A stretch of 64,000 bases of DNA from an uncultured virus (IMG/VR IMGVR_UViG_3300037493_005394) (lineage: Duplodnaviria > Heunggongvirae > Uroviricota > Caudoviricetes): the IMG/VR virus record IMGVR_UViG_3300037493_005394. One strand, written 5' to 3'. Below the pieces are notes generated by a model. The model was not told where the DNA came from and searched no databases. It saw nothing but the letters and a program-made list of their open reading frames with translations. Numbering within the stretch: position 1 is the stretch's first letter; the number at the start of each line of letters is the position of its first letter. The position numbers and the translations under genes are program-made. Shown here piece after piece: positions 24,532 to 63,311 of this stretch.

Positions 24532-25799
24532 AGGGCGAGCAGCTTCCGATAAAGTTGGAAAAGGTCAGAGAAAACTGGAAAGGATGAACACGTTTGAACC
24601 GCACGCACAAAATCGCACTTGATCCAACGGTATGCCAGGAGGCGTATTTCAGGCGGTGCTGTGGGGTGGCGAGGTTCACGTTTAACTGGGCGTTGGCCGA
24701 GTGGAAAAAGCAGTACGCGGCAGGGGAAAAGCCGAGCGGACCAGCGCTCAAGAAGCAGTTTAACGCCATTCGGCATGTGGATTTTCCGTGGTCCGGCGAG
24801 GTGCTCCGCGATGCGACGGCGCAGCCGTTCGTGAATGTGCAGCGGGCCTATCAGAACTTTTTTGAGAAGCGGGGGAAGTATCCGAAGTTTAAGAAAAAGG
24901 GCATTCACGATTCTTTCTACGTCGCGAATGACAAGTTAAATATAGATGGAAATCGCATTCAAATCCCGCGTATTGGCTGGGTGCGGATGCATGAGGCGTT
25001 GCGGTTTGTGGGCAAGATTTTATCAGCGGTCGTATCAAGGACATCTCACAAGTGGTTTGTGTCTATCGCGGTGGATATTCCGAGGACCCTGACGGCGAGC
25101 GAGAACCAAGCCGTAGTTGGGGTAGACCTTGGAATCAAGTCGCTGGCAACACTTTCCACAGGTGAGAAGTTCGAGGCACCAAAGCCGCTGAAACAGTCGT
25201 TGGCGAAGTTACAGCGATTGAGTCGACAGTTGTCTCGCAAGCAGAAGGGGTCGAATCGTCGGTGGAAAGCCAAGCAGAAGGTGGCCCGGCTGCATTACCG
25301 GATTTCATGTGTGCGGAATGACGCTTTGCATAAGTTGACGACAGGTCTGGTAGGGCGGTTTGGTACTATCGTCATCGAAGACCTGAACGTGAAGGGGATG
25401 AGGCAGAACCGGCGTCTATCGCGGGCTATCTCAGACGTTGGATTTGGTGAGTTTAGACGTCAGCTCGAATACAAGATGGCTACGAGTGGTGGGCGGTTGG
25501 TAGTGGCTGACCGCTGGTATCCGTCATCGAAGACGTGTTCAGACTGTGGGTTTAGGCTCGACATTTTGTCATTAGGCACCCGAGAATGGGATTGTCCGGC
25601 ATGTGGCGTTTCACATGATCGAGACATCAATGCCGCGATAAATCTCAAGAATCTAGGAGCGGCTAGCTCCAAAGTAACGCCCGTGGAGAAGCAGGCGCTG
25701 GCACGCAGACCGAGGCGTGTGAAACCGGCTTCAGTGAAGCGGGAACTAACTACCTTGGGAAACGGAAGTTTTTCTAAGAATTAGAAAGCAGGGCGAGCA
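24532..25799 (+). mobile_element. transposase-less IS607-type tnpB element 1, flanked by direct repeat AGGGCGAGCA
   Basis: Repeat at 24532-24541 and 25790-25799; lower GC than flanks; AAAxxTGGAAAG-like repeats at left end; right end ...GAAAGCAG. Confidence 0.75.
24594..25784 (+). CDS. tnpB: RNA-guided endonuclease TnpB
   Basis: RuvC-I VGVDLG, RuvC-II VIEDL, Zn finger CSDC/CPAC, RuvC-III HDRDINAA; catalytic residues intact. Confidence 0.95.
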   Translation: MNRTHKIALDPTVCQEAYFRRCCGVARFTFNWALAEWKKQYAAGEKPSGPALKKQFNAIRHVDFPWSGEVLRDATAQPFVNVQRAYQNFFEKRGKYPKFKKKGIHDSFYVANDKLNIDGNRIQIPRIGWVRMHEALRFVGKILSAVVSRTSHKWFVSIAVDIPRTLTASENQAVVGVDLGIKSLATLSTGEKFEAPKPLKQSLAKLQRLSRQLSRKQKGSNRRWKAKQKVARLHYRISCVRNDALHKLTTGLVGRFGTIVIEDLNVKGMRQNRRLSRAISDVGFGEFRRQLEYKMATSGGRLVVADRWYPSSKTCSDCGFRLDILSLGTREWDCPACGVSHDRDINAAINLKNLGAASSKVTPVEKQALARRPRRVKPASVKRELTTLGNGSFSKN

Positions 25800-25811
25800 T
25801 GTCGATAAAAT
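25653..25811 (+). ncRNA. predicted omegaRNA of tnpB element 1 (guide ~25792-25811)
   Basis: Stem GGAGC/GCTCC covaries with element 2; conserved GTGGAGA, GTGAAAC and GAAGCRGGAA blocks. Boundaries approximate. Confidence 0.65.
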
Positions 25812-26194
25812 GGTTGTTGCCAGAAGGTGTTGAGATCGTGTGCCTGTGCGGGGCCCCGACGGTGTATGCCGCGGGGCAGATGACGGTCTACAACGGGATG
25901 ATTGCGACGCCTGGGTGCCCGAGCTGCCAGACGCGGCGGGCGGACCTTTTCGTGCGGGGGGGGGAGCCCGTGGGGTATCCCGAGGCGACCTTGGTGCGGA
26001 TGCGGGCGGCGAAGGCGGTGTTCACGTGGCTGGTCGCGGCGGAGCGCTTCGCGGAGGGCGTGACGGCCGAGCAGATCCCGGCCGACCTGATGGTGGGGGC
26101 GATGGCGTGGCCCACGGGGGCGCCTGTGGAGGTGCCGTTGGCAGAAGCCTTCGCCAAGGCGCACGCGGCGTGGCTGCGGGCGCACCCCCAGTGA
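25799..26194 (+). CDS. hypothetical protein with Cys pairs
   Basis: CLC and CPSC; its original GGAGG RBS now lies on the far side of the tnpB insertion. Confidence 0.6.
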   Translation: MSIKWLLPEGVEIVCLCGAPTVYAAGQMTVYNGMIATPGCPSCQTRRADLFVRGGEPVGYPEATLVRMRAAKAVFTWLVAAERFAEGVTAEQIPADLMVGAMAWPTGAPVEVPLAEAFAKAHAAWLRAHPQ

Positions 26195-26202
26195 GGTAGG
26201 CG

Positions 26203-40413: not shown

Positions 40414-40860
40414 ATGTCCAACGAGGAGATCGTGAAGGCGTTTGCGTTCGAGGGTCGCGCGGTGCGCGTCGAGCTGATCGAGGGGGAGCCCTGGTGGGTG
40501 GCCAAGGATGTGGCCGAGGCGCTTGGCTATATGTGGAACGGATCAGCGCGTATTGAACATGTTCCTAAGAAGTGGAGGGGGGTCACATCCGTTGTGACCC
40601 TTCGTGGGGATGCACAGGATATGGCTGTGCTATCCGAGCAGGGGTTGTATTGGTTTCTTGCGCGATCGGACAAACCGGCGGCACTGCCTTTTCAGGAGTG
40701 GATTGCGGGGGAGGTGCTGCCGAACATTCGCAAGACGTGGCAGTACAGCGTGGTGCCCAGCAAGGCGTTGATCCCTGACTTTGAGGACCCGCTCGCGGCG
40801 GCCGAGGGGTGGATCGAGCAGGTGGAGCGAGCCGAGGTTGCTAAGGGGGTGGCGATATGA
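40414..40860 (+). CDS. Bro-N domain protein
   Basis: EPWWVAKDVAEALGY, LSEQGLYWFLARSDKP, FQEWIAGEVLP. Confidence 0.9.
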   Translation: MSNEEIVKAFAFEGRAVRVELIEGEPWWVAKDVAEALGYMWNGSARIEHVPKKWRGVTSVVTLRGDAQDMAVLSEQGLYWFLARSDKPAALPFQEWIAGEVLPNIRKTWQYSVVPSKALIPDFEDPLAAAEGWIEQVERAEVAKGVAI

Positions 40861-41376: not shown

Positions 41377-41403
41377 GCCCTGCGTACGCGCATACGCAGC
41401 GCC

Positions 41404-41432: not shown

Positions 41433-41465
41433 CGCTTTGAGACGATCCAGCAGAGGAGGTTCGCG

Positions 41466-50723: not shown

Positions 50724-52672
50724 CGCGGCGCGGGCAGGACACGCAGCTGCCCCTGCTCGGGGTGGGGGCCCCCGTGCGCCTGATCCACGGGGACAGCCTC
50801 GCGGTGCTGCCCCTGTTGGCGGCGGACAGCGTGGATGCGATCGTGACGGACCCGCCGTATGAATTATCGAACAGCGGCAAGGCAAGTGCCAGTCGGGTCG
50901 CGCTTGAACTCATGTTCCCAAAGAATGCGAAGGTCAATACCGATGGATCGAGCGAGGATCATCTTCCGTTCCTCGTATCGAAGATTATTGGCTTGCGTCG
51001 TGGTGGGTTTATCCCACAACCAGCGGCCACCGTGCCAGTACGTTCCGTGACACTCCACGACGATGCGGCGGGAGGGGATGTAAATGTCGAACACTGCGTA
51101 GAACGATCCATTTGGGAGTCGAACGGCGAGGGATGGAATGATGGTGAAGCCGAAGCGAATGAACACCTTGGCGACTTCGCGCTCGAATTGACTGACTCCA
51201 TGGCCATGTTGAATGCGCTGAATAGCTTGGGCTGCGGCTTTTTTGCGGGCGGAATCGGGATAGGGTTTGGGATTGATCCGACGAGTCTCCCAAGCCTTTG
51301 CTGCGGCGGCCTGTCGATCAACGACAGCGACGAAATTGTACGGTTTCGACACCGTGCGTTGACGGACACGATAAGCGCACTCTCTGGAACAGCAAGTATT
51401 CCCGTGGTGCGCTTTGATTTGGGACGGGTAACGGGTGAAAAGCTTGCCGCAGACGGGGCACTCGTGTTCTGTGCGTCTTTGCTTTTCGGTGGCGCGAAGT
51501 TGGTACGAACAAGCCCGAGAGCAGGTGGTCTGCCGTCCATGCTTGAGTCGCGTAGGATCTGCATCGTAGATGCGTTCACAAATCGGGCATTGTCGTTTAG
51601 CATCCTCTTCCATCCACAGAATATAGCACAAAATGGATTTATGGGAAAAGAGTGGGACGGATCAAGGGTTGCCTATGACGCGTCACTCTGGGCTAATTGT
51701 CTGCGGGTGCTCAAGCCGGGGGGGCACCTGATCGCGTTCGGCGGGGATCGCACGCATCATCGGCTCATGGTCGCGGTGGAGGATGCGGGGTTCGAGATCA
51801 GGACGTGCTTGTACTGGTGTTTTGGGTCTGGATTTCCGAAATCGTTAGATATTTCAAAGGCACTGGACAGAATGGAAGGCGCGGAGCGCGAAGTTGTTGG
51901 CATATCTTCTGTTACTGAATCTCGTCATTCAGAGTTTGCAGAGGTGAGAAATGATAGTCCGAGTGGGGTATATGGAGACAAGTCTATCAATTACATAACT
52001 GCTCCATCGACAGAGGCGGCCAGGCAGTGGGATGGTTGGGGGACCGCGTTGAAACCGGCGATAGAGATCGCGGTATTGGTGCGCAAGCCCCTGAGCGAGG
52101 GCACGGTGGCTAAAAATGTGCTGCGACACGGGACGGGGGGCCTAAATATCGACGCCTGCCGCGTGCCCACGGCGTCCGCGGATGCGGCGGCGCGGCCCCT
52201 GGACACGATGAAGGGCCGCTGGCCGGCTAATGTGGTGCACGATGGGAGCGAGGAGGTCGAGGCGGCCTTTGCGGCTTACGGGGCGCGCGGGCAGTGCGCG
52301 CCGGTTAAGGGGACGGAGCCGAGTGCGCCTAGCAAGCATGTGTATGGCACGTACAAAAGGACGGTAGCGACACAGTTTCAAGGGCGGGTGGACAGCGCGG
52401 CCCGGTTTTTTTACACGGCCAAGGCGAGTGGGGAGGACCGCGAGTTTGGAAATAATCACGTAACGGTCAAGCCCCTGGCGCTCATGCGCTGGTTGGTCCG
52501 GCTCGTGACGCGCCCTGGCGGCGTAGTGCTCGATCCTTTTATGGGCAGCGGCTCGACGGGGCGCGCGTGCCAGGCTGAGGGGTTTAGGTTTATTGGGATC
52601 GAGCGCGAGGCGGACTATGTGGCGATCGCGCAGCGGCGCCTGCTCGCGCAGGAGGTCGAGGTTTTGTCATGA
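50720..52672 (+). CDS. N6-adenine/N4-cytosine DNA methyltransferase (beta-type order) interrupted by a 256-codon in-frame insertion
   Basis: Motif IV VTDPPY, RVLKPGG, HVTVKP, motif I VLDPFMGSGSTG; DPPYEL|GFMGKEWD is split by 50867..51634. Confidence 0.9.
   Translation: MTRRGQDTQLPLLGVGAPVRLIHGDSLAVLPLLAADSVDAIVTDPPYELSNSGKASASRVALELMFPKNAKVNTDGSSEDHLPFLVSKIIGLRRGGFIPQPAATVPVRSVTLHDDAAGGDVNVEHCVERSIWESNGEGWNDGEAEANEHLGDFALELTDSMAMLNALNSLGCGFFAGGIGIGFGIDPTSLPSLCCGGLSINDSDEIVRFRHRALTDTISALSGTASIPVVRFDLGRVTGEKLAADGALVFCASLLFGGAKLVRTSPRAGGLPSMLESRRICIVDAFTNRALSFSILFHPQNIAQNGFMGKEWDGSRVAYDASLWANCLRVLKPGGHLIAFGGDRTHHRLMVAVEDAGFEIRTCLYWCFGSGFPKSLDISKALDRMEGAEREVVGISSVTESRHSEFAEVRNDSPSGVYGDKSINYITAPSTEAARQWDGWGTALKPAIEIAVLVRKPLSEGTVAKNVLRHGTGGLNIDACRVPTASADAAARPLDTMKGRWPANVVHDGSEEVEAAFAAYGARGQCAPVKGTEPSAPSKHVYGTYKRTVATQFQGRVDSAARFFYTAKASGEDREFGNNHVTVKPLALMRWLVRLVTRPGGVVLDPFMGSGSTGRACQAEGFRFIGIEREADYVAIAQRRLLAQEVEVLS
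50864..51613 (-). CDS. putative homing endonuclease (2 Zn fingers plus Vsr/DUF559-like nuclease) antisense within the MTase insertion
   Basis: CPIC..CSRAC and CPVC..CSREC; FDIYIPSRRIVVECHGTYWHG and LRILWEHEF. Alternative TTG start at 51631. Confidence 0.85.
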   Translation of the reverse strand: MEEDAKRQCPICERIYDADPTRLKHGRQTTCSRACSYQLRATEKQRRTEHECPVCGKLFTRYPSQIKAHHGNTCCSRECAYRVRQRTVSKPYNFVAVVDRQAAAAKAWETRRINPKPYPDSARKKAAAQAIQRIQHGHGVSQFEREVAKVFIRFGFTIIPSLAVRLPNGSFYAVFDIYIPSRRIVVECHGTYWHGGRWLWDKPTTTQANNLRYEERKMILARSIGIDLRILWEHEFKRDPTGTCLAAVR

Positions 52673-52884
52673 CGGAGGTGCGCGAGGCGCGGGTCTACCG
52701 CCTCTCCCGGCAGGAGGCCGTGGAGCTGCTGACGGATGGCCTCAAGGCGCGTGGCATAGCGGTGCCCCCCTATGACTGGGCGCGGCTGGACCTCGACACG
52801 CCCAACAATACGATTCAACTCACGATCGTGGCGGTGCCGCCGGGGACCGTGGTAACGTCGACCCCGGCGATCAGGCTCAACTGA
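52669..52884 (+). CDS. small hypothetical protein
   Basis: ATGA overlap with the MTase stop. Confidence 0.55.
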   Translation: MTEVREARVYRLSRQEAVELLTDGLKARGIAVPPYDWARLDLDTPNNTIQLTIVAVPPGTVVTSTPAIRLN

Positions 52885-52908
52885 CGCTGCGTATGCGCGT
52901 ACGCAAGG

Positions 52909-54181
52909 AGCGAGGGACTCTGGTGTTTAATCAATGCTTGAATGTGAGTCATGATTCACATTTTGCCCATGTCAGGTCAAAGTCGTGAACCGCACGCATA
53001 AAATCGCGTTGGATCCCACATCTAGCCAGGTCGGCTATTTTCGGCGGGCCTGTGGCGTGGCGCGGTTTACGTACAACTGGGGGCTAGCCGAGTGGCAGCG
53101 CCAATATGCCGAGGGGCAGAAACCCAGCGGGGCAGCGCTCAAGAAGCAGTTCAACGCCCTGCGCCATGTGGATTTTCCGTGGTCTGGCGAGGTGCTGCGC
53201 GACGCGACGGCCCAGCCGTTTGCAAACCTGCAGCGGGCCTATCAGAACTTCTTCGCGAAGCGGGGCAAGCATCCTACCTTTAAAAAGAAGGGCCGCCATG
53301 ACAGCTTTTACATTGCGAACGACAAGTTTTCGGTAGAGGGCGAGAAGATCCGTATCCCCCATGTTGGGTGGGTGCAGATGCGTGAAGCCTTGCGGTTTGA
53401 AGGCCGGATTCAATCGGCGGTAGTGTCCCGAACAGCGCATCGGTGGTTTGTGGCGATAGCGGTCGAGGTGCCCGATCAACTCATCACGCGCGAGAACCAA
53501 GCGGTGGTGGGGGTGGATCTGGGGATTAAGGCGCTGGCGACGCTTTCCACGGGTGAGTCGATTTTGGCACCAAAACCGTTGAAGGCCTCATTGGAAAAGC
53601 TGCGCCGGTTAAGTCGGAGCGTGGCGCGCAAACAGAAGGGATCGGCGAACCGGGCCAAGGCTGTAAGGCGCTTGGTGCGGGTTCATTACCGGATTGCCTG
53701 TGTGCGCAACGATGCCTTGCACAAGCTCACAACGGGGCTTGTGGAGCGGTTTGGAACCGTGGTGATCGAGGATTTGAACGTCAAAGGGATGGTGAAAAAC
53801 CACTGCCTGGCCAGGGCGATTTCCGACCTTGGGTTTGGGGAGTTCCGGCGACAACTGGAGTACAAAGCCCCCGCAAAAGGCGTGAGGATCGTGGTGGCGG
53901 ATCGGTGGTTTCCGTCCTCGAAGACGTGTGCAGACTGTGGATTTGTGGTGGATATTCTGCCGCTGTCGGTTCGAGAATGGGCGTGTCCCGAATGTGGGGT
54001 AGTCCATGACCGGGACGTGAATGCGGCGATCAATCTGGAAAAGCTAGGGCGGGCTACGCCCGAAGAAACGCCTGTGGAGAAGAAGGCTCTGGCGCGGCCG
54101 AAATGGCGCGTGAAACCGGCCTCGCGGAAGCAGGAACCAACCGGTGCGCACCTTTGCGCACCAGAAAGATAGCAGCGAGGG
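52909..54181 (+). mobile_element. transposase-less IS607-type tnpB element 2, flanked by direct repeat AGCGAGGG
   Basis: Repeat at 52909-52916 and 54174-54181; inverted repeat at 52941-52962; right end ...GATAGCAG. Confidence 0.75.
52985..54172 (+). CDS. tnpB: RNA-guided endonuclease TnpB, paralog of 24594..25784
   Basis: VGVDLG, VIEDL, CADC/CPEC and HDRDVNAA all intact. Confidence 0.95.
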   Translation: MNRTHKIALDPTSSQVGYFRRACGVARFTYNWGLAEWQRQYAEGQKPSGAALKKQFNALRHVDFPWSGEVLRDATAQPFANLQRAYQNFFAKRGKHPTFKKKGRHDSFYIANDKFSVEGEKIRIPHVGWVQMREALRFEGRIQSAVVSRTAHRWFVAIAVEVPDQLITRENQAVVGVDLGIKALATLSTGESILAPKPLKASLEKLRRLSRSVARKQKGSANRAKAVRRLVRVHYRIACVRNDALHKLTTGLVERFGTVVIEDLNVKGMVKNHCLARAISDLGFGEFRRQLEYKAPAKGVRIVVADRWFPSSKTCADCGFVVDILPLSVREWACPECGVVHDRDVNAAINLEKLGRATPEETPVEKKALARPKWRVKPASRKQEPTGAHLCAPER

Positions 54182-54195
54182 CCATGAAGGACGAT
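54044..54195 (+). ncRNA. predicted omegaRNA of tnpB element 2 (guide ~54176-54195)
   Basis: GGGCG/CGCCC stem, GTGAAAC, GAAGCAGGAA and GGTGCGCA/TGCGCACC hairpin. Confidence 0.65.
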
Positions 54196-54546
54196 GATCA
54201 GTACATCTCTAAGCGGTGGATCTTGGTCATGGTGGGCATTTTCTTTGGGGCGGGGATCGGCATTGGCATGCTGGTGATGGCGCTGGTGGGGGCGCTGACG
54301 GGGTGCGACCTCGTGAAGAAGGATACGGATGGGTGCGCGCCCGAGGCCCTGCGGTGTGCGGGGCCGCGCCTGGAGGTCTGCGACGCGGACCGCAACTGGG
54401 GCCTCGTCGCGGACTGCGCGACCGTGACGCCGGGCCTGTGGGTGTGCTGCCCCGCGCAGGAGACCTGCGTGCCGGCCGCGGCGTGCGGCGGGGATGCGGG
54501 CGACCATTTTGCTGATGCCGGCAAGATGGTCGACGCGGGCCCATGA
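54184..54546 (+). CDS. Cys-rich putative lipoprotein
   Basis: Hydrophobic segment, LTGC lipobox, eight further Cys, DAG-repeat tail. Confidence 0.65.
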   Translation: MKDDDQYISKRWILVMVGIFFGAGIGIGMLVMALVGALTGCDLVKKDTDGCAPEALRCAGPRLEVCDADRNWGLVADCATVTPGLWVCCPAQETCVPAAACGGDAGDHFADAGKMVDAGP

Positions 54547-54663
54547 AGAAGGATGAGCGCGAGTACCAGGCCAACTTCGAGCGACGCCTGCGGGCACGGG
54601 TGACGGGCGAGGTGGAGGAGTGGCGGATGGAATCTCTCTGGACGGGGGAAGTAAGGAGTCATT

Positions 54664-55314
54664 GTGACGATGAGCCCAACGACTAAGCACCATGCGCTGA
54701 CCCCGGCCCTGGTGATCGATCTTTACGGGTACATGAGCGAGGTCTACCACAGCCGGGTGGTACCCAAGGGCGGATCGCACGCGATGAAGGCGGCGGGATG
54801 GGCGCTCGACCTCATGGGGGTCCAGGATGCGTCGACCTTCATGACGCGGTACACGACGACGATCGGGCACACCATCTACGTGCCGTATGTCGTGGGGGAG
54901 ACGCAGGATCCCGCGGTGTTGGCCAAGCAGATCGCGACGTGCGTCCATGAGCACCAGCACGTGGAGCAGTACGACGTGGGGGGCTGGCGCTGGCAGTGGG
55001 CGTACCTGACCGACCCCACGGCGCGGGCGCGCTACGAGGCGGAGGCCTATGCGACGAACCTAGAGATGGCCTATTGGTACGATGGGGGGCGCCTCGACCC
55101 GGTGGCCCTTGCGGCCAAGCTCAAGGCCTATGGGTGCGGGACCGCGGACATCGCGGTGGCGGCGCGGATGCTGGCGGCCTCCGCGAGCATTGCGTGGCGC
55201 GGGGGGATCGCGCACACCCCGAGCCGGCGCGCCATTGCGTGGCTGGAGACCCATGCCCCCACGGTGCGCCTCAGCGCTGCGGCCTGGGAGCCCATCGGTT
55301 ACAACCCTCTCTGA
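54664..55314 (+). CDS. putative zincin-type metallopeptidase
   Basis: AAGGAG RBS; CVHEHQHVEQ (HExxH) plus YEAEAY. Confidence 0.65.
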   Translation: MTMSPTTKHHALTPALVIDLYGYMSEVYHSRVVPKGGSHAMKAAGWALDLMGVQDASTFMTRYTTTIGHTIYVPYVVGETQDPAVLAKQIATCVHEHQHVEQYDVGGWRWQWAYLTDPTARARYEAEAYATNLEMAYWYDGGRLDPVALAAKLKAYGCGTADIAVAARMLAASASIAWRGGIAHTPSRRAIAWLETHAPTVRLSAAAWEPIGYNPL

Positions 55315-55345
55315 GGCCCCCCCCCACACCCCCGTCGATCTGTTG

Positions 55346-55374
55346 TTGACAAACCCGGTTGGCGGCGTTACGTT
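55346..55374 (+). promoter_or_regulatory. sigma70-like promoter, TTGACAAACC family
   Basis: TTGACA-N17-TACGTT; relatives at 57837-57865 and 62791-62819. Confidence 0.65.
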
Positions 55375-55427
55375 TTCAATGGGCATGGTCCCATCAACAA
55401 ACCGGCGCCTGGCGCCAGGAGGCCTCA

Positions 55428-57836
55428 ATGGAAGCCAACACGATCATCACCCTCGCTGCCCTCGCCGCTCTCCCCGCCGACGCCCTGCGCGCCCTCGCCC
55501 AGCAACTGCACGCGGCCGTGCGCGCCCTCGCGGGCGTCTGCGACGGTGCAAAATCTAAGGACGATCGGGGGTTCAGCGCCAGCGACACGGCCTATGGCAA
55601 GGCCATCGCGGCGGTAGCCCCCGAGGCCTGGACGGCCGAGGACGTAGCGGCCGTGGCGGCCCTCTGCCGTACCTATAAGGGGCAGCTCGCGGGGTTCGGC
55701 CTCGACGTGGAGGCGTTACCCCGCGTCGACGTCGATCGGCGGGCCAATTACGAGCACTTTAGAGCACGTGTGGCGGCGGCAGCGCGCAAGGCCGTGCAGG
55801 CGGCCTATGTCGCCAGCGCGGGGACCGCAGCAGATCGTACGCGGGCGGCGGATCTCGCGTGCCTCGCGTGGGTGGAGGGGCAGGAGCTGGTCTTCCAGAC
55901 GCCGTATGACGTGGCTTTCGTCGCGGCGGTCAAGGCGTGCGAGGGGCGCCGCTGGGACGGCATGTACTGGCGCGTGGCCATGCGGCCCAATGCGGGGGCC
56001 CTCCTTGCCCTCCTCGACACGTTCGAGGTCGCCTGCCCGGCGGAGGCCCGCGCCCTGCTCCAGGCTCATGCGGCGGATGCGGCGGCCCCCAAGGCCGAGG
56101 CCCCCAAGGCCGACCACGTGACCCTCGTGGACGGTCAGATTATCCTGCGCACCCCCTACAGCCCCGAGGCCACCGCGGCGATCAAGGCCCTGCAGGGCCG
56201 CCGCTGGGACGGCGAGCGCAAGGTGTGGGTCGTCACGGCGACGGCGGAGAACTGCACGGCGGTCCAGGCCCTCGCGGGCCGCTTCAACTGGCGCGTGGCG
56301 GCGGCGGTGGCCACGTTCGGGCAGGCGATGGTGGCCCAGGCCCTAGCCAACGTCGAGGCGAGCCGCGCGGCCGACGCCGAGGTGACCCTGAGCGGGTTGG
56401 CTGCTGGCGTCACCCCCTACCCCTTCCAGCGCGCCGGCATCGCCTACGCCGTGGCCAACCGTAACGTCCTAATCGCTGATGATGTTGGCTTAGGAAAATC
56501 TCCACAGTCCATGATCACGGTCGAGCAGCTCGGCGCCTACCCCTGCCTCGTGGTCGCCCCGAAGGCGGTCAAGCGCCAGTGGCGCAAGGAGATCATCAAG
56601 TTCCTCACCGGCCGCACCTCCAGCGAGGTCAACGGCAAGATCGACCTCAGCGGCGACTTCGTGATCGTGAATTACGCCCAGCTCAGCAAGCTGACCGTCG
56701 CCGTCCATGTGCCGGGTAAGGGTGGCGCGATGCGCACGGTGTACGAGCCCACTCCCGAGGTCGTGGCGCGTGGCTTCCGATCGATCATTGTCGACGAGTG
56801 TCAAGCATGCAAGGACGGGCAGTCGCTTCAGAGTAAGCGCGTTAAGGGCCTTGCGGGCCTTCCCGGCCTTCAGTGCCGCTTGCTCCTCACCGCGACCCCG
56901 ATCATGAACCGCCCCGTGGAGCTGGTGCATCAACTCGACGTGCTCGGGCGCCTCGGCGAGTTCGGCGGCTTCTGGGCGTTCGTGAAGCAGTATTGCAAGG
57001 CCACGCAGGGCCGCTACGGGTGGGACCTCAGCGGCGCCAGCAACCTCGGCGAGCTGAACCGCCGTCTGCGCGCGACCTGCATGGTGCGCCGCGAGAAGGC
57101 GGACGTTGTGAAAGAGTTGCCGGCCCTCCAGCGGACCGTGGTGCCCTGTGAGATCCGGGACAAGGCCGCCTTCGCGGACGCCATGTGCGACGCCATCGCG
57201 TGGCTCCGCGAGGCCAAGGGCTCGCTATCGGAGCGCGCGTTCCACGCCGAGGCCCTGGTGAAGATCAACGCCCTCCGCCAGATGGCCGCCGAGTTTAAGC
57301 TTGCCAGCGCGGTCGACTGGATCGAGGCGTGGCTTGACGGCGCCGAGGGGCAGAAGCTCGTGGTGTTCGCGCACCACCGGGACATCCAGGCCAAGCTCGC
57401 GGCGGCCCTCGCCCCCTACGGGGCCGTGGCCCTCAGCGGGGAGAGCACGGACCGCGAGCGCGCGGACGCCGTGGACCGCTTCTGGAAGGATCCTGCGTGC
57501 CGCGTGATCGTGTGCAGCCTCAAGGCCGCCGGCGTGGGCCTGAACCTCCAGTGTGCGGGGACCGTGGCCTTCGTGGAGTTCGGGTGGCACGCCGCGGACA
57601 TGAACCAGGCCGAGGGGCGTGTGCACCGCATCGGCAGCGAGGCCGAGTCGATCAACTCTTACTGGCTCGCTGGTGAGGACACGTTCGACACTGACATGAT
57701 CGAGCTGATCGAGAGCAAGCGCGCGGTGGCTGACGCCGCGGTGATCGGGGCGGGGGGCGCGGAGGCCGTGCAGGACGTGGTGGCGTGGTTCGCGGGGCTC
57801 GCCACGCGGTTTATGGTGGCCCAGGGCCGCGAGTAG
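55428..57836 (+). CDS. SNF2-family helicase with two HARP-like domains (SMARCAL1-like)
   Basis: AGGAGG RBS; two TPY..AxxK..GRRWDG repeats, DDVGLGKS, DECQ, TATP, QAEGRVHRIG. Confidence 0.9.
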   Translation: MEANTIITLAALAALPADALRALAQQLHAAVRALAGVCDGAKSKDDRGFSASDTAYGKAIAAVAPEAWTAEDVAAVAALCRTYKGQLAGFGLDVEALPRVDVDRRANYEHFRARVAAAARKAVQAAYVASAGTAADRTRAADLACLAWVEGQELVFQTPYDVAFVAAVKACEGRRWDGMYWRVAMRPNAGALLALLDTFEVACPAEARALLQAHAADAAAPKAEAPKADHVTLVDGQIILRTPYSPEATAAIKALQGRRWDGERKVWVVTATAENCTAVQALAGRFNWRVAAAVATFGQAMVAQALANVEASRAADAEVTLSGLAAGVTPYPFQRAGIAYAVANRNVLIADDVGLGKSPQSMITVEQLGAYPCLVVAPKAVKRQWRKEIIKFLTGRTSSEVNGKIDLSGDFVIVNYAQLSKLTVAVHVPGKGGAMRTVYEPTPEVVARGFRSIIVDECQACKDGQSLQSKRVKGLAGLPGLQCRLLLTATPIMNRPVELVHQLDVLGRLGEFGGFWAFVKQYCKATQGRYGWDLSGASNLGELNRRLRATCMVRREKADVVKELPALQRTVVPCEIRDKAAFADAMCDAIAWLREAKGSLSERAFHAEALVKINALRQMAAEFKLASAVDWIEAWLDGAEGQKLVVFAHHRDIQAKLAAALAPYGAVALSGESTDRERADAVDRFWKDPACRVIVCSLKAAGVGLNLQCAGTVAFVEFGWHAADMNQAEGRVHRIGSEAESINSYWLAGEDTFDTDMIELIESKRAVADAAVIGAGGAEAVQDVVAWFAGLATRFMVAQGRE

Positions 57837-57902
57837 TTGACAAACCGGGCGGGGCGTGCTAACGCCTTTGCAGGCCCTAGGGGCCAGGGGGGGAGGATCA
57901 TC

Positions 57903-58560
57903 ATGGATGCGCAGGGCACACGGATGCTAGAGCATGAGGGTAAGTTCGTGGGGCGCCGCGCCTGCGTGCTGCGGGGCGGCCCCATGTGGGCGGGTCTCCT
58001 CGCGGCGGAGCACGGGGACAAGCCGGCGGCGCTAGTGGCCGAGGTCGAGGTGGGGCGGGATCGGATCGCGCGGGCCGTCGTGGCGGCGGCGCTGCGGGGG
58101 CGGGCATGACGCCCTGGGAGTGGATGCGTTCGCCCGCGCATGCGCATGCGCAGGAAGAGGTCTTGTTGGAGGCGCATGCCTTCCTTGACTATATGCGGGT
58201 GCACTGGGCTGAGGTGGCGCCGTGCTCCTGCCACCAGATCGAGGGGCACGCCCCGGACTGCGCCTACGAGCGCACGACGGAGTGCCTGCGTGTGGCTTTT
58301 TTTGCGGCGCGCGCGGATGCCTGATGGACCGCGTGCTGAGCTGGAAGGATGCCCTCGCGGTCTACAAGGCCGTGCGGGGGTACGCGGGGGCCCTGACCCC
58401 CGAGGAGCGGCGGACCATGGTGGAGGCCCAGGGGGCCCTCTTGGGGCGCTGCTGCGGGCAGACGAACCCCATGAGCCGGGCGCAGCTCGACGCCGTGCTG
58501 GCCATCGGCGCCAAGGCGCTGGCGTACGCGCATGCGCACGGGATCGGGATCCCGCGCTGA
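57903..58560 (+). other. three small coupled ORFs (57903..58109, 58106..58324, 58324..58560)
   Basis: ATGA/TGATG overlaps downstream of the promoter at 57837. Confidence 0.5.
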
Positions 58561-59260: not shown

Positions 59261-62200
59261 TCACGTGGAGCGGATTGTGGGCGTGCTATCGCGCGCGGGT
59301 GCTCGGGACTCTGGCGATCCTCGCGCTGTGCGCGGTGCCCCTGGTCTTCCAGCCGGCGCCCGTGCGGGCCTCCGAGGGGCCGCCGGCCGAGCTGCGGGAC
59401 GTGGTGAGCGCGCTGAAGGACATCAACGGGGCGCTGCGGGACGTGGCCGAGGGGCTGCGGGCCGTGGAGCGCGCCCTCAAGGAGAGCAAGCGATGAGCGA
59501 CAGGGAGCAGGATGCGGTGGCCTCGGTGGGGCAGGACGAGGCCCCTCCAGAGGAGGGCGTGCAGGCGCTGGCAGATCTTACGCGGCAGCTGAACGAGCTG
59601 GTGCAGGCCATGGTCGAGCAGGAGCAGGTCGGGGTCCTGGAGCTGCGCGCGGGCGAGGTGGAGGCCTGGACCCGCACGGTGCTGGCGTTGATCTTGGAGG
59701 TCATGCCCGCGATCATCCGCTGGGAGGGGCTGGCGGACATCGTGTTGGCGGTTCACGCGGATCGCAAGGGGGGCCGATGAAGGTGTGCGCGGGGTGCCGG
59801 GTGGAGTTGCGGTGCCAGAAGAACGGCGTCGTGGTGCGCATGCGCAGCACGGGCTACTGCCTGCGGGGGGACGTCTTCGAGTGCCCGGCGTGCGGGGCGC
59901 GCACGATTATCACGGCTAGCGCGGGCTACACCGAGGAGGTCACCCTAGTGGGGGAGATCTACTACGACTTGCAGGAGCGCGGGACATGACGCGGGCCATC
60001 TGCGCTTACCTCGACCCTGGCGGCGTCCTCTACTGCGTGGACTGCCTGCACCAGCATGGGCGGCTGGAGGAGGCCCAAGCGGGGCGCGGATCGGCCCCGT
60101 GGGTCCGCGTGTACAGCGATGGGCGGCCCCCTCGCGAGGATCCCTGCGCGGGCTGTGGCCTCCTCGTCGGCGAGGTGGGGCTATGATGGATGAAGAAAAG
60201 CGGTTGGCGTGGGTGCGGGGATTGCGCAAGGGCGATTCCGTCTTGGTTTGTTCTTTAGGGTCGATGAAACACTGGATGGGTAGGGTGATGGGGCTCGGCC
60301 CCAAGGCGTTCATGGTGGCATTGGTCTTTGAGGATGGAAAGCCTAATGAGAGGTGTCGCCGGTACAGTCGGGAAACCGGATGTGCGATGGGGAAAGGTCC
60401 GGCTCAATTGGTAGAGCCGACGCCAGATCGGGTTGCCTTGGCTGGGTATCTTAAAGGAAGTCGGGGGTATTGATGGATGAAGAAAAGCGGGTGGCGTGGG
60501 TCAGGGGGTTACGCAAGACTCACAAGGTGATGCTCTATAGGAGCCATGATGGGATCGGATGATTTCCGAACGCTGAACGAGTCCAAGACGGGGGCTGACG
60601 CTGCGCAGGCGCACGAGTGTCGGATGTTCCGGGCGCGGGCGCTCCTAGTGTGGATGGAGCACGAGAACCAGATGGCGGCCCGTGAAGTGGCCCTTGAGGG
60701 TTGGCTGAGCGACCATACGGCGGCGCTCGCCGCCCTAGACGCCGAGCTGCAGGCGCTGCTGAAGGAGGACGCATGACGGCGCTTTATCCGACCGATTCGT
60801 TGCCGCCGTTGCCCGACATGTCAGACCACGTTCCGCCGGTCCCGAAGAAGCCGCTCGTCGACTGGGGGTTCGCCTGCGGGCGGCACTACCTCACGGTCGC
60901 GGGGTACATCGTTGCGATGGAGGGGGATCCCATCCGGGACGCGGACGTGTTCGCCCTGCAGAGCGAGGCGGCGCGGAAGTTGGGCTGGAAGGGCTGGGAC
61001 GGGGAGGCGATTAAGGCGGTCTGCGCGGTGGCCAACAAGGCGCAACCATGACGCAATTTAATCGGTTTTTGGTGGTTGTCACGTTTGTTGCCGCGGGCTG
61101 TGTGTGCGGAATAGGCTGGAGATGCGCGCAAACGCAGACCGCTAGCGTTGAGAATGTGTCGTCAGAATCGATCAAGGATCTAAAGATACGACTCTATAAA
61201 ATGACGCGGGACGCCACGCAGTTTCATAGGGAGCTGGAGGCGTGCCAGCGGGCGAAGGGTGTCGAGTGGCGAGAGCGTATGGAGGCAGTCTGTGCGGAGT
61301 ACAAGTTCGAGGTGATGCCATGAAAAAAGCTAGGACCCACATTAGCATGCTTGGATGTGCGCCAGTGCTACAGATCGAGCAACCACTGGCCGACGGCACC
61401 ACCGGGTGGCGCAAGGTTTACTGCCCACTGTCATCTAGTTCCGACGGTGACCCCTGCGGGGAATGGTGCGTGTGGTTTGATGTGGACGTGCGTGACTGTG
61501 ATGCAAGCGCAGGGCTGGCAGAGCGAAAACTGGTCACTTGCAAAGGGACGCCCATCGCAGAACTGGTGGATGGAATGGATCCGGTGACGCCATGATGGGG
61601 CCAGGGTTCGCGGCGCATGTGGGAGCAGCCGCCGTTCAGCGGGTAGCGATAGTCACGCTCGCAATCGTGGGGATCAGCGGGGGTATGGGGGTCGCGTTGT
61701 TGGGGTACGCAAGGTTCGACGAGAGGGCCACCACGGCGGAGACTGAGAAAGCCATGTTGCAAAAACGCCTCGACGCGGTGCAAAAACGCCTCGACGCGGT
61801 GCAAAAACGCCTCGACGCGGTGCAAAAACGCCTCGCGGAGGTGGAGGGATTGCTGGATGGGTGCCAGCAGGACCTGGTGGACCAGGGGATCACGGCGAAC
61901 GCGCGGCTGCTGGATTGCCAGAAGGCGACGACGGAGAACATCCGGCGCCACTGCGGGTCGTTGTGCGCCAAGTGTTACGTGCTCGTGCGGGACGTCGAGG
62001 AGGACCTCACGGGGATCCTCGACAAGCGGTGGCGGGTCAGTGCTGAGGTGCTGCCATGATGGAGGATTCGCTCCCCGTTGAATACTGCGACTGCGCGGCG
62101 TGCAAGATGCTCCTTGCCATGGATGCGTTAGCGGACCGTGTCTTGGCGTTAAGGCGGGCGTGTGGTGTCGTTGATAGGTTTGTAAAGCGCCCGTGGCCCC

Positions 62201-62816
62201 GCCAGCATAAGGGGTGCTGTCGTTCCTCGGAAAGGTTGGAGTGGATGTACCGCATGACCCAACCGATTCGAGGGCGTATCCCGGAGGAGGGCGAACATGG
62301 GCAGGCGCAAGCTACGGCCGCGCAGGCGGTGCAGTGTTACCCCAACGACCACGACGACGATGACGACGTGTAAGCGGTGCGGGGCGCTCTTCTCCTCGGG
62401 GTTGGTCGTGTGCTCCGTGCCGTTGGGGGGCACGTCGCCGACGCAGACGGACAACGAGTGGGGGAGCCGGATCCAGATGCGGCCGGGGGAGTGCCCCCGG
62501 TGCGGGCACATCACCGCGAGGAGGCAGCATGTTCAATAAGAAGCAGTGGCACATCTGGCGGGCGACCTGCGGGGGGCGCGCGGTGGACGTCGTGGCGTGC
62601 GGGGGCCAGCAGGCGCGCAAGGTCGCCGCGGCCCTCTGGATGGTGCGCTACGCCGAGGTCGGGGCGGCGTGCGTCTCGCGGGGGCTGTCCTGTGCGGAGG
62701 GGCACGGGCCACGCCTCGCCCCGGAGGGCCTGGTCGAGCGCTTTGCGCGGGAGGCCCCGCCGCCCCTGTACCGGCCCCGCCTGGTGCGCGTTGACAAACC
62801 GCGTGCGATGCGCTAA
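59254..62816 (+). other. run of small, mostly coupled hypothetical ORFs (59254, 59493, 59777, 59986, 60183, 60546, 60773, 61048, 61320, 61592, 62529 and others)
   Basis: Chains of ATGA overlaps; several CxxC Zn-ribbon and TM plus coiled-coil proteins. Frame choice at 62056-62539 is uncertain. Confidence 0.5.
61758..61835 (+). repeat. 21-bp tandem repeat, 3.7 copies, encoding heptad QKRLDAV
   Basis: TGCAAAAACGCCTCGACGCGG x3 plus a 15-nt partial copy. Confidence 0.95.
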
Positions 62817-62883
62817 CTTTCTCGGTGGAGCCATAGGCTCTACTGACAACCCAGGCGCCTGGCGCCGGAAAGGGCTCTGAGCC

Positions 62884-63129
62884 ATGAACAACATCTCTAA
62901 GCACTACTACCAAGCGGGCGCCTGTAACAGCAGCACGTTAACCTCCCCTCCTGATCGCTGTTGCGGGGCGTGCGAGGCCCTGGCGTGGCGGCCCACGCTG
63001 GCGGGGGCCGTGTACTACTGCGGCTTGAACAAGGAAGAGTTGGTGGTCGAGGATGGGGGGGATGACGAGGTGCGCCCCTCGTTCGCGCGTAGCATGATGT
63101 GCTTGATGAGGGGTTGGAAGGAAAACTAG
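62884..63129 (+). CDS. small Cys-rich protein whose C-terminus is altered by the downstream insertion
   Basis: Follows promoter 62791; the reconstructed empty allele would end GWKEGEAAL*. Confidence 0.55.
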   Translation: MNNISKHYYQAGACNSSTLTSPPDRCCGACEALAWRPTLAGAVYYCGLNKEELVVEDGGDDEVRPSFARSMMCLMRGWKEN

Positions 63130-63311
63130 GATTAACAAGATCACGCAAGCGAAGCACTTACCGCCAGTTCGGCGGGACGTAAAGCCTGTGGAGAGGACTG
63201 CGCTGGCGGGCGTTCAACGACGCGCGTGAAACGGACCTTGGTGAAGCAGGAAGCAAGCGCTGGACTGTCGTTAGACAGTTTGGGTTAGTCTTGCAGAACG
63301 GTTGGAAGGAA
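63112..63311 (+). mobile_element. omegaRNA-only IS607-type mini-element flanked by direct repeat GGTTGGAAGGAA
   Basis: Repeat at 63112-63123 and 63300-63311; scaffold blocks CCGCC/GGCGG, GCCTGTGGAGA, GTGAAAC, GAAGCAGGAA; ends AGAACGG; no tnpB ORF. Confidence 0.75.

What the first reader, a model, noticed from the sequence alone, without database searches (positions are those of the whole stretch)
24532..63311. Three transposase-less IS607-type TnpB/omegaRNA elements, each duplicating its own guide seed at the left junction
Seen: element 1 reads GGAG|GGCGAGCA ... AGCAG|GGCGAGCATG. Element 2 reads GGAG|CGAGGG ... AGCAG|CGAGGGCCATG. Element 3 reads GGGG|TTGGAAGGAA ... AACGG|TTGGAAGGAAGG. Removing each element plus one repeat restores a clean allele: RBS plus ATG for elements 1 and 2, and an ATGA gene overlap for element 3. 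No tnpA is in the window. Known: IS200/605 and IS607 normally make no target duplication, and the TnpB guide is the DNA flanking the right end. Inference: the TAM of both TnpBs is the Shine-Dalgarno-like GGAG, so they target translation-initiation regions of empty alleles in competing phages, like RNA-guided homing endonucleases. The retained TAM plus 6-10 nt seed might allow binding without cutting upstream of tnpB (autoregulation), or may record a non-canonical insertion route.
Basis: partly seen in the sequence, partly recalled or inferred. Interest (0 to 1): 0.75.

Follow-up and report, generated by a model that had tools for sequence, protein, structure and literature searches.

The report
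Phage TnpB elements with duplicated guide seed
Three small RNA-guided-nuclease (TnpB) mobile elements in an uncultured phage each carry, at their left edge, a short copy of the DNA their own guide RNA reads at the right edge, which the known way these elements move does not produce.

Summary
The elements sit at 24532-25799 (tnpB plus omegaRNA), 52909-54181 (tnpB plus omegaRNA) and 63112-63311 (omegaRNA only). Each is flanked by a perfect direct repeat of 10, 8 or 12 bp. Each repeat is the crossover dinucleotide plus the first 8, 6 or 10 bases of the guide, placed straight after a GGAG or GAGGGG motif.

A related 168-kb phage contig has no TnpB. It shows empty alleles at the first two sites and a single copy of the repeat at the third. 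A contig from another sediment run also bridges site 2 without the element.

The Shine-Dalgarno-like TAM is not new: AGGAG and GAGGG are published for this TnpB clade. The repeat is the unusual part. It is absent from 9 of 9 relatives with defined ends and shows no excess in a 94-locus scan. It recurs imperfectly (11 of 13) in one of five related phage-borne copies. A second copy, L012, keeps an E1-like left end at an unrelated target, which argues against a simple target duplication.

My best reading is that these are transposase-less homing elements, and that the repeat is a footprint of non-canonical, break-repair-linked insertion. The left copy is too short to be cut but long enough to be bound. 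The mechanism is unproven.

The parts
24529..24533 (+). E1 TAM-like motif TGGAG. It was the former Shine-Dalgarno site of the downstream gene.
   Evidence: Sequence. The same cgtGGAG is present in the empty allele of G001. Published TAM is AGGAG.
24534..24541 (+). E1 left copy of guide bases 1-8 (GGCGAGCA). With the preceding AG it forms the 10-bp direct repeat at 24532-24541.
   Evidence: Positions 1-8 match the guide, then 5 of the next 12 match.
24542..24593 (+). E1 left non-coding arm. It starts at the terminus GCTTCC shared with L012 and L345. It carries the tail of a short reading frame (...EQLPIKLEKVRENWKG*) whose stop lies 6 nt before the tnpB start.
   Evidence: A stop (TGA, TAG, TAA, TAA) sits at the same place in E1, L012, L004 and L005.
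24594..25784 (+). E1 tnpB, 396 aa, TTG start.
   Evidence: Pfam HTH_OrfB_IS605, OrfB_IS605 and Cas12f1-like TNB. D178, E262, D344 and four Cys are invariant in the 5-protein alignment. Best solved relative is TnpB 8bf8/8exa, E = 5e-65.
25680..25791 (+). E1 omegaRNA scaffold, overlapping the 3' end of tnpB and ending ...AGAAAGCAG.
   Evidence: Full-length RAGATH-18 match at 25.4 bits, below Rfam's gathering score of 44.9. It fits the family consensus fold, in which 20 of 23 pairs show compensatory changes across 29 sequences.
25792..25811 (+). E1 guide template and native target (GGCGAGCATGTCGATAAAAT). It includes the ATG of the downstream gene at 25799. The right repeat copy is 25790-25799.
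   Evidence: The right-end boundary is fixed by 7 relatives that share ...GCAG and then diverge.
52906..52910 (+). E2 TAM-like motif AGGAG.
   Evidence: AAGGAG is also present in the empty alleles of G001 and of the run X3 contig.
52911..52916 (+). E2 left copy of guide bases 1-6 (CGAGGG). With AG it forms the 8-bp repeat at 52909-52916.
52917..52984 (+). E2 left arm, containing the palindrome AATGTGAgtcatgaTTCACATT. It is unrelated to the E1 left arm.
52985..54172 (+). E2 tnpB, 395 aa, GTG start, 72% identical to E1 TnpB.
   Evidence: Pfam and alignment. In the RNA library X5, contigs cover 52319-53022 and 53034-53924, the latter with 0 differences. This shows presence in the library, not proof of transcription.
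54071..54175 (+). E2 omegaRNA scaffold ending ...AGAAAGATAGCAG.
   Evidence: RAGATH-18 match at 19.7 bits, sub-threshold. Consensus fold.
54176..54195 (+). E2 guide template and native target (CGAGGGCCATGAAGGACGAT). The downstream ATG is at 54184. The right repeat copy is 54174-54181.
   Evidence: The 35 nt after the TAM are only 19 of 35 identical to the X3 empty allele, while the flanks are 98.8% and 97.6% identical (my count).
63108..63113 (+). E3 TAM-like motif GAGGGG, whose last GG is the core dinucleotide.
   Evidence: GAGGG is the second published TAM.
63114..63123 (+). E3 left copy of guide bases 1-10 (TTGGAAGGAA). With GG it forms the 12-bp repeat at 63112-63123. It lies inside the 3' end of gene 62884-63129.
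   Evidence: G001 has one copy, GGCTGGAAGGAA, at the homologous place.
63124..63301 (+). E3 body: a solo omegaRNA unit with no tnpB, ending ...GCAGAACGG (GG-core type).
   Evidence: RAGATH-18 match at 63185-63252 (24.5 bits, E = 0.028) and Transposase-2 match at 63243-63306 (19 bits), both sub-threshold. It aligns with the right ends of L084, L159 and L160 and fits the consensus fold.
63302..63321 (+). E3 guide template and native target (TTGGAAGGAAGGAGAGGCGG). The right repeat copy is 63300-63311. The downstream ATG at 63326 forms ATGA with the restored upstream stop.

Best explanation
**What they are (well supported).** These are three non-autonomous members of the IS607-associated TnpB/omegaRNA lineage, sitting in a large, high-GC, uncultured phage found in sediment metagenomes. 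E1 and E2 encode apparently intact RNA-guided nucleases. E3 is only the guide-RNA unit. Each lies directly 3' of a Shine-Dalgarno-like TAM (GGAG or GAGGGG). As a result, the guide transcribed across the right end spells the translation-start or gene-junction sequence of the uninterrupted allele. The expected activity is homing: the nuclease cuts empty alleles in co-infecting relatives, and repair copies the element in.

**The repeat (inferred).** The short direct repeat is a duplication of the TAM-proximal part of the target, made at insertion. The route is not the canonical serine-recombinase crossover, which shares only 2 bp.

The most likely route is aberrant repair of a TnpB-cut allele:
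1. TnpB cuts about 16-22 nt from the TAM.
2. The left DNA end therefore keeps the TAM plus a stub of the target.
3. The right junction is rebuilt from the donor by homology.
4. The left stub, trimmed to 6-11 nt, is joined to the element's left terminus by end joining.

Only products whose left copy is shorter than about 12 nt survive, because a longer copy next to a TAM would be cut by the element's own nuclease. What remains is a TAM plus seed. TnpB can probably bind this but not cleave it, and it lies upstream of tnpB. Any regulatory use of that site is conjecture.
For: **Identity**
- Pfam domains, invariant RuvC and zinc-finger residues, and sub-threshold but full-length RAGATH-18 matches in all 3 units.
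- A family fold with compensatory changes in 20 of 23 pairs.
- Relatives L067 and L078 carry a MerR-HTH plus resolvase TnpA upstream.

**Foreign origin**
- GC content of the elements is 0.53, 0.58 and 0.55, against 0.66 for the window.

**Homing logic**
- TAMs match published AGGAG and GAGGG.
- G001 (168.5 kb, 83% complete) has no TnpB. It has empty alleles at sites 1 and 2 and a single copy of the repeat at site 3.
- An X3 contig bridges 52912 to 54211 without E2.
- All four empty alleles differ from the guides within the first bases. At E2, a 35-nt patch matching the guide region is 54% identical, while the flanks are about 98% identical. This is expected either from target escape or from co-conversion.

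**The repeat is real and unusual**
- Chance frequencies are 7e-4 to 1.2e-2 each.
- The repeat is absent in 2 of 2 complete AG-core IS607, 5 of 5 tnpA-less copies in one Malikia MAG, and 2 of 2 mycobacteriophage TnpB-only insertions.
- There is no excess in 94 scored loci.

**The left copy is target-derived**
- The E3 12-mer is native at that place in G001.
- In L005 the two copies differ at 2 of 13 positions, both at third-codon positions of the interrupted reading frame: GYII is encoded by TAC ATA on the left and TAT ATC on the right. This is as expected if one copy came from the recipient and the other from a donor allele.

**Length limit**
- The copies are 6, 8, 10 and 11 nt. Binding without cleavage beyond about 8 nt, and about 12-16 bp needed for cutting, are stated in bioRxiv 10.64898/2026.01.09.698545.
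Against: - No repair intermediate or new insertion has been observed. The route is inferred from four junction pairs only.
- The left termini of E1, L005, L012 and L345 fall within about 5 nt of one another (CAG/GCTTCC). Random abortive repair would not give that. It calls for a defined left end, which my model does not explain without extra assumptions.
- L012 (83% TnpB identity) has an E1-like segment (GGTGAAGCA) after GGAG although its right flank differs. Only AGCAGC is shared, and that is offset by 1 nt. This fits an element-borne left end better. L012 is a 1.7-kb metagenome contig and may be chimeric.
- L004 (86% identity), L307 and L345 show no clear repeat, and L004 and L345 lack a GGAG next to the left end. 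So only 1 of 5 related phage-borne copies repeats the pattern.
- For E1 and E2 the empty alleles differ in the spacer, so they cannot show which copy is native.
- No relative with an empty L005 site was found: 0 of 4 loci.
Confidence: 0.45

Rival explanations
1. The bases after the TAM belong to the element: a fixed left end. Insertion sites are chosen because they resemble it. One route is short-homology recombination between the right-end/left-end junction of an excised circle and a look-alike target. Another is a TnpB RNP whose guide was transcribed across that circle junction, so that the left-end bases become the guide.
For: - E1 and L012 share GG(C/T)GA(A)GCAGCTTCCGA at the left junction at unrelated sites. 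Their inferred circle junctions differ only by a 3-nt indel.
- Left termini of four copies coincide within about 5 nt.
- In E1 a further CGATAAA lies 2 nt out of register in both copies.
Against: - L005 belongs to the same lineage and has a homologous left arm, yet it carries GGTACATAATT instead. That sequence matches its own flank at 9 of 11 positions and keeps the interrupted frame.
- E2 and E3 each have different, perfectly matching bases.
- Canonical relatives show no target mimicry: 9 of 9.
- L012's own flank does not match its left end, so the model fails on the very copy that suggested it.
- The extended E1 similarity is not significant without a position constraint (p = 0.21).
Confidence: 0.2
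2. Whatever made it, the TAM plus seed at the left junction is kept because TnpB-omegaRNA binds it without cutting. This would control read-through transcription into tnpB, or protect or mark the filled allele.
For: - Copy lengths of 6-10 nt sit in the published range for binding without cleavage.
- All three window repeats are perfect, although the elements differ (E1 and E2 are 72% identical in protein).
- No sigma-70-like promoter was found in either left arm on the + strand, so tnpB probably depends on read-through or coupling.
- A stop codon 6 nt before the tnpB start is conserved in 4 of 4 E1-lineage copies.
Against: - There are no expression or binding data.
- E3 has the repeat but no tnpB to regulate.
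- L012, L004 and L307 keep intact tnpB without it.
- Recent insertion would also leave the repeats perfect.
Confidence: 0.2
3. These are true target-site duplications made by an unidentified trans-acting transposase with staggered cuts, which has captured tnpB-omegaRNA cassettes. Some Fanzor elements sit in TIR/TSD transposons in this way.
For: - The repeats are direct, abut the element and are target-derived.
- TnpB homologues are known inside TSD-making transposons (bioRxiv 10.1101/2023.08.09.552727 passages; PMC13565253 passages).
Against: - Lengths vary (6, 8, 10, 11 nt), unlike a fixed stagger.
- I saw no terminal inverted repeats when reading the ends.
- The right junction is exactly the canonical right end with its core.
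- The left copy always starts exactly at the TAM.
Confidence: 0.07
4. The repeats are chance similarity between G-rich ribosome-binding regions and the element ends.
For: The sequences are short and purine- and G-rich. The window is 66% GC.
Against: - Per-site frequencies are 2.2e-3, 1.2e-2 and 6.9e-4 under a conservative in-window null.
- All three are in exact register with the TAM and the right end.
- The E3 repeat is not a ribosome-binding site.
Confidence: 0.01

Closest known systems
IS607-family TnpB guided by RAGATH-18-derived RNA (PMC11061315, 'Discovery and structural mechanism of DNA endonucleases guided by RAGATH-18-derived RNAs'; passages read)
   Same: TnpB of about 390 aa. The guide-RNA scaffold has the RAGATH-18 core. 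The TAM is 5'-AGGAG or 5'-GAGGG, and the guide is taken from DNA flanking the right end.
   Different: - The scaffold here overlaps the tnpB 3' end, and its Rfam score is below threshold.
- No tnpA is present.
- The host is a phage.
- There is a 6-10-nt copy of the guide start behind the TAM at the left junction.
Clostridial IS607 IStron, TnpA(S) plus TnpB (bioRxiv 10.1101/2023.11.20.567912, 'Antagonistic conflict between transposon-encoded introns and guide RNAs'; passages read)
   Same: - The same core dinucleotide sits at both junctions.
- The TAM (TGGG) and the right-end-internal look-alike (TCGG) differ at position -3. Here the pairs are GGAG against GCAG, and GGGG against ACGG.
- The nuclease cleaves the scarless donor joint.
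   Different: - There is no serine recombinase and no intron here.
- E1 and E2 use an AG core instead of GG.
- The junctions share 8-12 bp rather than 2 bp.
TnpB 8bf8/8exa, the closest solved natural structure by sequence (I recall it as the ISDra2 enzyme; the call gives only the molecule name)
   Same: Domain order and catalytic residues are shared. E = 5e-65 over residues 2-359.
   Different: That element is recalled to be of the IS200/IS605 type, with a Y1 transposase and an AT-rich TAM.
Free-standing homing endonuclease genes of phages (intronless homing; PMC13565253 section 3.2 passages)
   Same: The elements sit between conserved phage genes. Empty alleles exist in relatives. There is a local patch of divergence at the target, consistent with co-conversion or marker exclusion.
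   Different: Target recognition is by RNA guide plus TAM rather than by protein. These elements also carry a partial copy of their own target.
5'-truncated retroelement copies with variable target duplications (an analogy from general knowledge, recalled)
   Same: The right (3') end is constant. One copy, E3, is reduced to its 3' part. The flanking duplications vary in length.
   Different: No reverse transcriptase was seen among the proteins scanned. The left termini of the E1 lineage are nearly constant.

Membership tests
TnpB (OMEGA) RNA-guided nuclease | OrfB_IS605 (RuvC) domain plus zinc-ribbon TNB domain plus N-terminal HTH | tested here: met
   E1 and E2 each hit PF12323, PF01385 and PF07282 above the curated cut-offs.
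TnpB (OMEGA) RNA-guided nuclease | Catalytic D-E-D triad and CxxC...CxxC | tested here: met
   D178, E262, D344, C315, C318, C334 and C337 are invariant in the 5-protein alignment. The motifs GVDLGIK, IEDLN and HDRDINAA align to a solved TnpB-type nuclease.
TnpB (OMEGA) RNA-guided nuclease | RNA-guided, TAM-dependent DNA cleavage | not testable with these tools
   Needs biochemistry or an interference assay.
IS607 family | Serine-recombinase TnpA (MerR-type HTH plus resolvase domain) | tested here: not met
   Absent from the window (tblastn best E = 0.65). It is present upstream of tnpB in relatives L067 and L078. The window copies are at most non-autonomous derivatives.
IS607 family | Identical core dinucleotide at both junctions | tested here: met
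   AG/AG in E1 and E2, and GG/GG in E3.
IS607 family | No target-site duplication | tested here: not met
   Direct repeats of 10, 8 and 12 bp. Canonical relatives share only the core.
IS607 family | G-rich TAM or target (AGGAG or GAGGG for the RAGATH-18 clade) | tested here: inconclusive
   The sequence next to the left junction fits: TGGAG, AGGAG, GAGGGG. The TAM of these enzymes was not measured.
RAGATH-18 RNA (Rfam RF03064) | Score at or above the gathering threshold of 44.9 bits | tested here: not met
   Scores are 25.4, 19.7 and 24.5 bits, each covering model positions 1-71. There were no hits at the gathering threshold.
RAGATH-18 RNA (Rfam RF03064) | Conserved fold supported by covariation, located at the tnpB 3' end | tested here: met
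   29 family sequences including the three window units: 23 predicted pairs, 20 with compensatory changes.
Homing genetic element | Filled and empty alleles of the same site in related genomes | tested here: met
   G001 is empty at sites 1 and 2 and lacks the element at site 3. An X3 contig is empty at site 2.
Homing genetic element | Conversion of empty alleles to filled alleles after cleavage | not testable with these tools
   Needs co-infection or plasmid assays.

The most novel reading that the evidence does not exclude
TnpB/omegaRNA units in phages can spread without any transposase. The nuclease cuts a matching allele. The right junction is rebuilt by homology. The left junction is made by joining the TAM-proximal stub of the cut target to a fixed left terminus. 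This leaves a TAM plus seed that the element's own RNP then occupies without cutting. That bound RNP could throttle read-through into tnpB. It could also act as the roadblock that defines the left terminus the next time the element is copied. E3 would be the minimal product of this route: a guide-RNA unit copied alone into its own target.
Probability: 0.2. Interest if true: 0.85.

Novelty: new variant of a known kind. Interest (0 to 1): 0.6.

Why it matters
TnpB elements far outnumber their transposases, and how transposase-less copies reach new alleles is an open question. A reproducible junction footprint would give that question a sequence signature that can be searched for in phage metagenomes and tested at the bench. 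The footprint is: TAM, then a sub-cleavage-length copy of the guide start, then the element.

It would also be a natural case of an RNA-guided nuclease carrying a bind-only copy of its own target. That is the kind of step expected on the way from nuclease to RNA-guided regulator.

The Shine-Dalgarno-like TAM has a practical consequence in phages. These elements land between ribosome-binding site and start codon, or in stop/start overlaps. In doing so they replace GGAG with GCAG in front of the downstream gene.

Tried and rejected
- **Rfam at gathering threshold:** 0 hits in the whole window.
- **'phages' collection:** no DNA or protein match for the E1 flank.
- **Own genome and earlier findings:** no whole genome is held.
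- **Right-end 15-16-mers in viral contigs:** the listed loci (80 shown of at least 120, 5, and 61) were almost all chance hits. After I filtered for the RNA core, 1 remained, L307. L345, on the same contig, was found by eye.
- **Degenerate right-end pattern:** it returned only the 3 loci already known.
- **Is the repeat general? No.**
My regular expression found a right end in 92 of these, and I added E1 and E2.
  - The longest exact core-plus-guide prefix upstream of tnpB was distributed like cross-locus controls. Only E1 and L154 reached 8.
  - L154's copy lies 392 nt upstream behind TTTAA and was not followed up.
  - In a gapped local-alignment scan of 92 loci, 7 exceeded all 25 controls, against about 3.5 expected. 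The top hit, L160, lies about 390 nt outside the left end and is not a junction repeat.
- **Extended duplication beyond the perfect repeats:** not significant. The CGATAAA in E1 counts only if near-register position is required.
- **E3's flank resembling L084's flank (GAGAGGCGGC):** the neighbouring genes are unrelated. Left unexplained.
- **Left arm of E1 as a tnpA 3' remnant:** comparison with about 60 TnpA C-termini was unconvincing.
- **Empty allele for L005:** none found; the 4 loci were 2 self-hits and 2 at 28% identity.
- **Other TnpBs in the phage contigs G003-G005:** 6 loci examined, with right ends undefined and no junction repeat recognised.
- **Reads:** contigs cannot show RNA ends or levels. 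The joints 53134 to 53877, 52910 to 58134 and 63349 to 63037 were not interpreted.

Full report
**Setting.** The window is 66% GC and codes mostly on the + strand. PHROGs and Pfam find the following:
- a tail protein, a virion structural protein and head-decoration matches;
- four anti-repressor (Ant-type) paralogues;
- a thymidylate kinase, an SNF2-type helicase and a DNA methylase.

Most other proteins have no family. There is no match in the collection of deposited phages. A 168.5-kb IMG/VR contig (G001, estimated 83% complete) encodes relatives of the flanking genes at 75-96% identity. Coded public runs from sediment metagenomes hold the E2 region, five of them with at least half of its sampled words. 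So this is a large uncultured phage, and no whole genome is held for it.

**The three elements.** ORFs 24594-25784 (396 aa) and 52985-54172 (395 aa) carry the three TnpB Pfam domains above threshold. They are 72% identical to each other. They keep the RuvC D-E-D residues and both CxxC pairs. The closest solved natural protein is TnpB 8bf8/8exa (E = 5e-65).

The last ~110 bases of E1 and E2 (from 25680 and from 54071 to the right end), and a 178-bp gene-less unit at 63124-63301, contain the conserved blocks CCYGTGGAGA ... GTGAAAC ... GAAGCNGGAA. Each gives a full-length RAGATH-18 match of 19.7-25.4 bits. This is below Rfam's gathering score of 44.9, and nothing passes at the gathering threshold. 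I aligned 29 family members, including the three window units. The consensus fold has 23 pairs, and 20 of them show compensatory changes. I therefore accept them as omegaRNA scaffolds of the RAGATH-18 type, while noting that the curated threshold is not met.

The element GC content (0.53, 0.58, 0.55) is well below that of the phage.

**Ends.** The right ends are fixed by comparison.
- E1, E2, L004, L005, L012, L067, L078, L307 and L345 all end ...AGAAAG(ATA)GCAG and diverge immediately after.
- E3 ends ...GCAGAACGG, like 84 of the 94 scored family loci.
- L067 and L078 are complete IS607 elements. A MerR-HTH plus resolvase TnpA lies upstream of tnpB, and their left ends begin right after CGGAG and TGGAG.

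This agrees with measured TAMs for this clade: AGGAG in 18 of 22 strains and GAGGG in 4 of 22 (PMC11061315, passages; repeated in the review PMC13565253). Published work on a clostridial IS607 describes a TAM of TGGG against a right-end-internal TCGG (bioRxiv 10.1101/2023.11.20.567912, passages). The same kind of contrast appears here: the TAM reads GGAG where the right end reads GCAG, and GGGG where it reads ACGG.

**The repeats.** Exact coordinates are in the parts list. Each repeat begins at the core dinucleotide, so the left junction reads TAM, then guide bases 1-8 (E1), 1-6 (E2) or 1-10 (E3), then unrelated element sequence. In-window chance frequencies are 2.2e-3, 1.2e-2 and 6.9e-4. Similarity does not continue beyond the perfect repeats.

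**Empty alleles.**
- G001 has no TnpB.
- At site 1 it reads TAG agcgtGGAG gtgtgtgc ATGTCGATC....
- At site 2 it reads AAGGAG ctatgggg ATGCAG....
- In run X3, a 1537-base contig joins 52912 to 54211 with 33 other letters. That gives AAGGAG CGTTGTGG ATGCAGAGC....

In all of these, the distance from GGAG to ATG is 8 nt. The window alleles restored by removing the element plus one repeat give 7 nt (E1) and 8 nt (E2).

At site 3, G001 has one GGCTGGAAGGAA in the homologous codons, followed by about 200 extra bases with a small reading frame. So the repeat sequence is native there, but the exact restored allele (an ATGA overlap) was not observed.

None of these empty alleles matches the corresponding guide through the first bases. 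At E2, the X3 allele is 98.8% and 97.6% identical in the flanks but only 19 of 35 in the patch that the guide reads (my count). That fits either escape of surviving empty alleles or co-conversion of a donor flank. Both are expected of a homing nuclease.

**How unusual is the repeat?** IS607 is described as making no target duplication.

| Set of relatives | Result |
|---|---|
| 2 complete AG-core elements | only the core shared |
| 5 tnpA-less copies in one Malikia MAG (left end GGG|TTNC ATTCAG...) | only the core shared |
| 2 mycobacteriophage TnpB-only insertions, a different subfamily (Lizziana, Job42) | no shared bases |
| 94 scored loci, exact-prefix scan | matched cross-locus controls, apart from E1 and one unexamined case (L154) |
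| 92 loci, gapped scan | weak excess, 7 against about 3.5 |

The best hit of the gapped scan is not at a junction.

**Close phage-borne relatives give a mixed picture.**
- **L005** (the same element as L006 and L011; 80% TnpB identity). The left junction is ctctGGGG|GGTACATAATTG|CTCC and the right is aaGCAG|GGTATATCATTG|AGG. This is a 13-nt repeat (GGGTA..ATTG) with two differences. Both fall at third-codon positions of the reading frame that runs into the element (GYII in both copies).
- **L012** (83%). GGAG is followed by GGTGAAGCA-GCTTCC, which resembles E1's GGCGAGCA-GCTTCC. Its right flank is GAGCAGCCATG. Only AGCAGC is shared, one base out of register.
- **L004** (86%). There is no GGAG at the presumed left end, and at most AGCC or a 7-of-8 match.
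- **L307**. It carries a ribbon-helix-helix gene before tnpB. I found no copy of its guide start in the 1915 nt upstream, but its left end is undefined.
- **L345**. This is a solo omegaRNA on the same contig. It keeps the left terminus CAGCTTCC fused to the RNA region, with no GGAG and no repeat.

The left termini of E1, L005, L012 and L345 fall within about 5 nt of each other. In E1, L012, L004 and L005, a stop codon (TGA, TAG, TAA, TAA) lies exactly 6 nt before the TTG start of tnpB. This suggests that translation reading in from upstream is coupled to tnpB.

**Interpretation.**

*Shown:*
- the identity of the parts;
- the exact repeats and their register;
- the empty alleles;
- the rarity of the repeat among relatives.

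*Follows from published work:*
- the TAM identity;
- a TAM with only 6-10 matching bases should be bound but not cut.

*Inferred:*
- The repeat is target sequence duplicated at insertion. The E3 site in G001 and the synonymous differences in L005 support this.
- The duplication came about by repair of a TnpB-cut allele, in which the TAM-proximal stub was kept.

A survivorship filter would explain why all copies are shorter than the length needed for cleavage. The main weakness is the near-constant left terminus, together with L012, which fit an element-borne end. I therefore hold the mechanism at under even odds and list the fixed-end, target-mimicry reading as the main rival. No regulatory role for the left copy has been tested.

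**Literature.** Four full-text searches returned no paper describing a duplicated guide seed at an IS607 or TnpB left junction. I judged this from titles and abstract starts in the listings, and from passages in six papers. I opened no supplements, and bioRxiv supplements are closed. The supplementary figures of the IS607 and IStron studies (end sequences, integration sites) could bear on this.

Noticed in passing
window 54176-54210 against the contig of run X3: A 35-nt patch exactly where the E2 guide reads is only 19 of 35 identical to the empty allele, while the flanks are about 98% identical. The downstream protein starts MKDDDQYIS here, against MQSDDKHT(I/V) in X3 and G001.
   Followed up: partly
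window end (64000) joined to 52986 in contigs of runs X2 and X3 (table 5): Contigs that run off the window's last base continue, after unknown letters, into an E2-like tnpB start. A further TnpB copy may lie just beyond the window in related strains.
   Followed up: no
window 24528-24587; L012, L004 and L005 upstream of tnpB: A short frame ends with a stop exactly 6 nt before the TTG start of tnpB in 4 of 4 E1-lineage copies, each time with a different stop codon. In E1 it starts at a GTG 1 nt after the stop of the upstream phage gene. In L005 the interrupted phage ORF itself runs into it. This looks like translational coupling of tnpB to upstream genes.
   Followed up: partly
window 25782-25801 and 54170-54186: Insertion replaces the GGAG in front of the downstream start codon with the right-end GCAG. 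The tnpB stop lies 14 nt (E1) and 11 nt (E2) before that ATG, so the downstream gene may now depend on re-initiation after tnpB.
   Followed up: no
window 61758-61835: A perfect 21-bp tandem repeat, 3.7 copies (TGCAAAAACGCCTCGACGCGG), inside ORF 61538-62059. A joint at 61736/61798 in X2 and X3 contigs skips 61 bases with 19 other letters between. This may reflect copy-number or sequence variation.
   Followed up: no
window 40414-46669: Four paralogous anti-repressor (Ant-type) genes lie close together: 40414-40860, 44028-44888, 45300-45782 and 45779-46669.
   Followed up: no
L084 80-211; L307 upstream of tnpB: A small ribbon-helix-helix gene (PF01402, E = 5e-10 for L084) overlaps the tnpB start by ATGA. 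This is the arrangement named Arc in a 2026 preprint on IS605-family elements (10.64898/2026.09.24.754181, listing only). The L307 gene was judged by eye, not scanned.
   Followed up: partly
G005 (161-kb phage contig holding L307 and L345): One phage contig carries five TnpB homologues (57, 42, 37, 34 and 28% identity to E1; one has an in-frame TGA) plus a solo omegaRNA unit.
   Followed up: partly
E3 right flank (63302-63325) and L084 right flank: The 22 or so bases after the right end are alike in E3 and in the full-length element L084 (TTG(G)AAG...GAGAGGCGGC), although the neighbouring genes are unrelated. Unexplained. It could mean that the guide region travels with the element or that similar targets are chosen.
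   Followed up: partly
window 52935-52956: The E2 left arm holds a perfect 7-bp inverted repeat, AATGTGA(N7)TCACATT. It could be a protein-binding site. No + strand promoter was called there.
   Followed up: no
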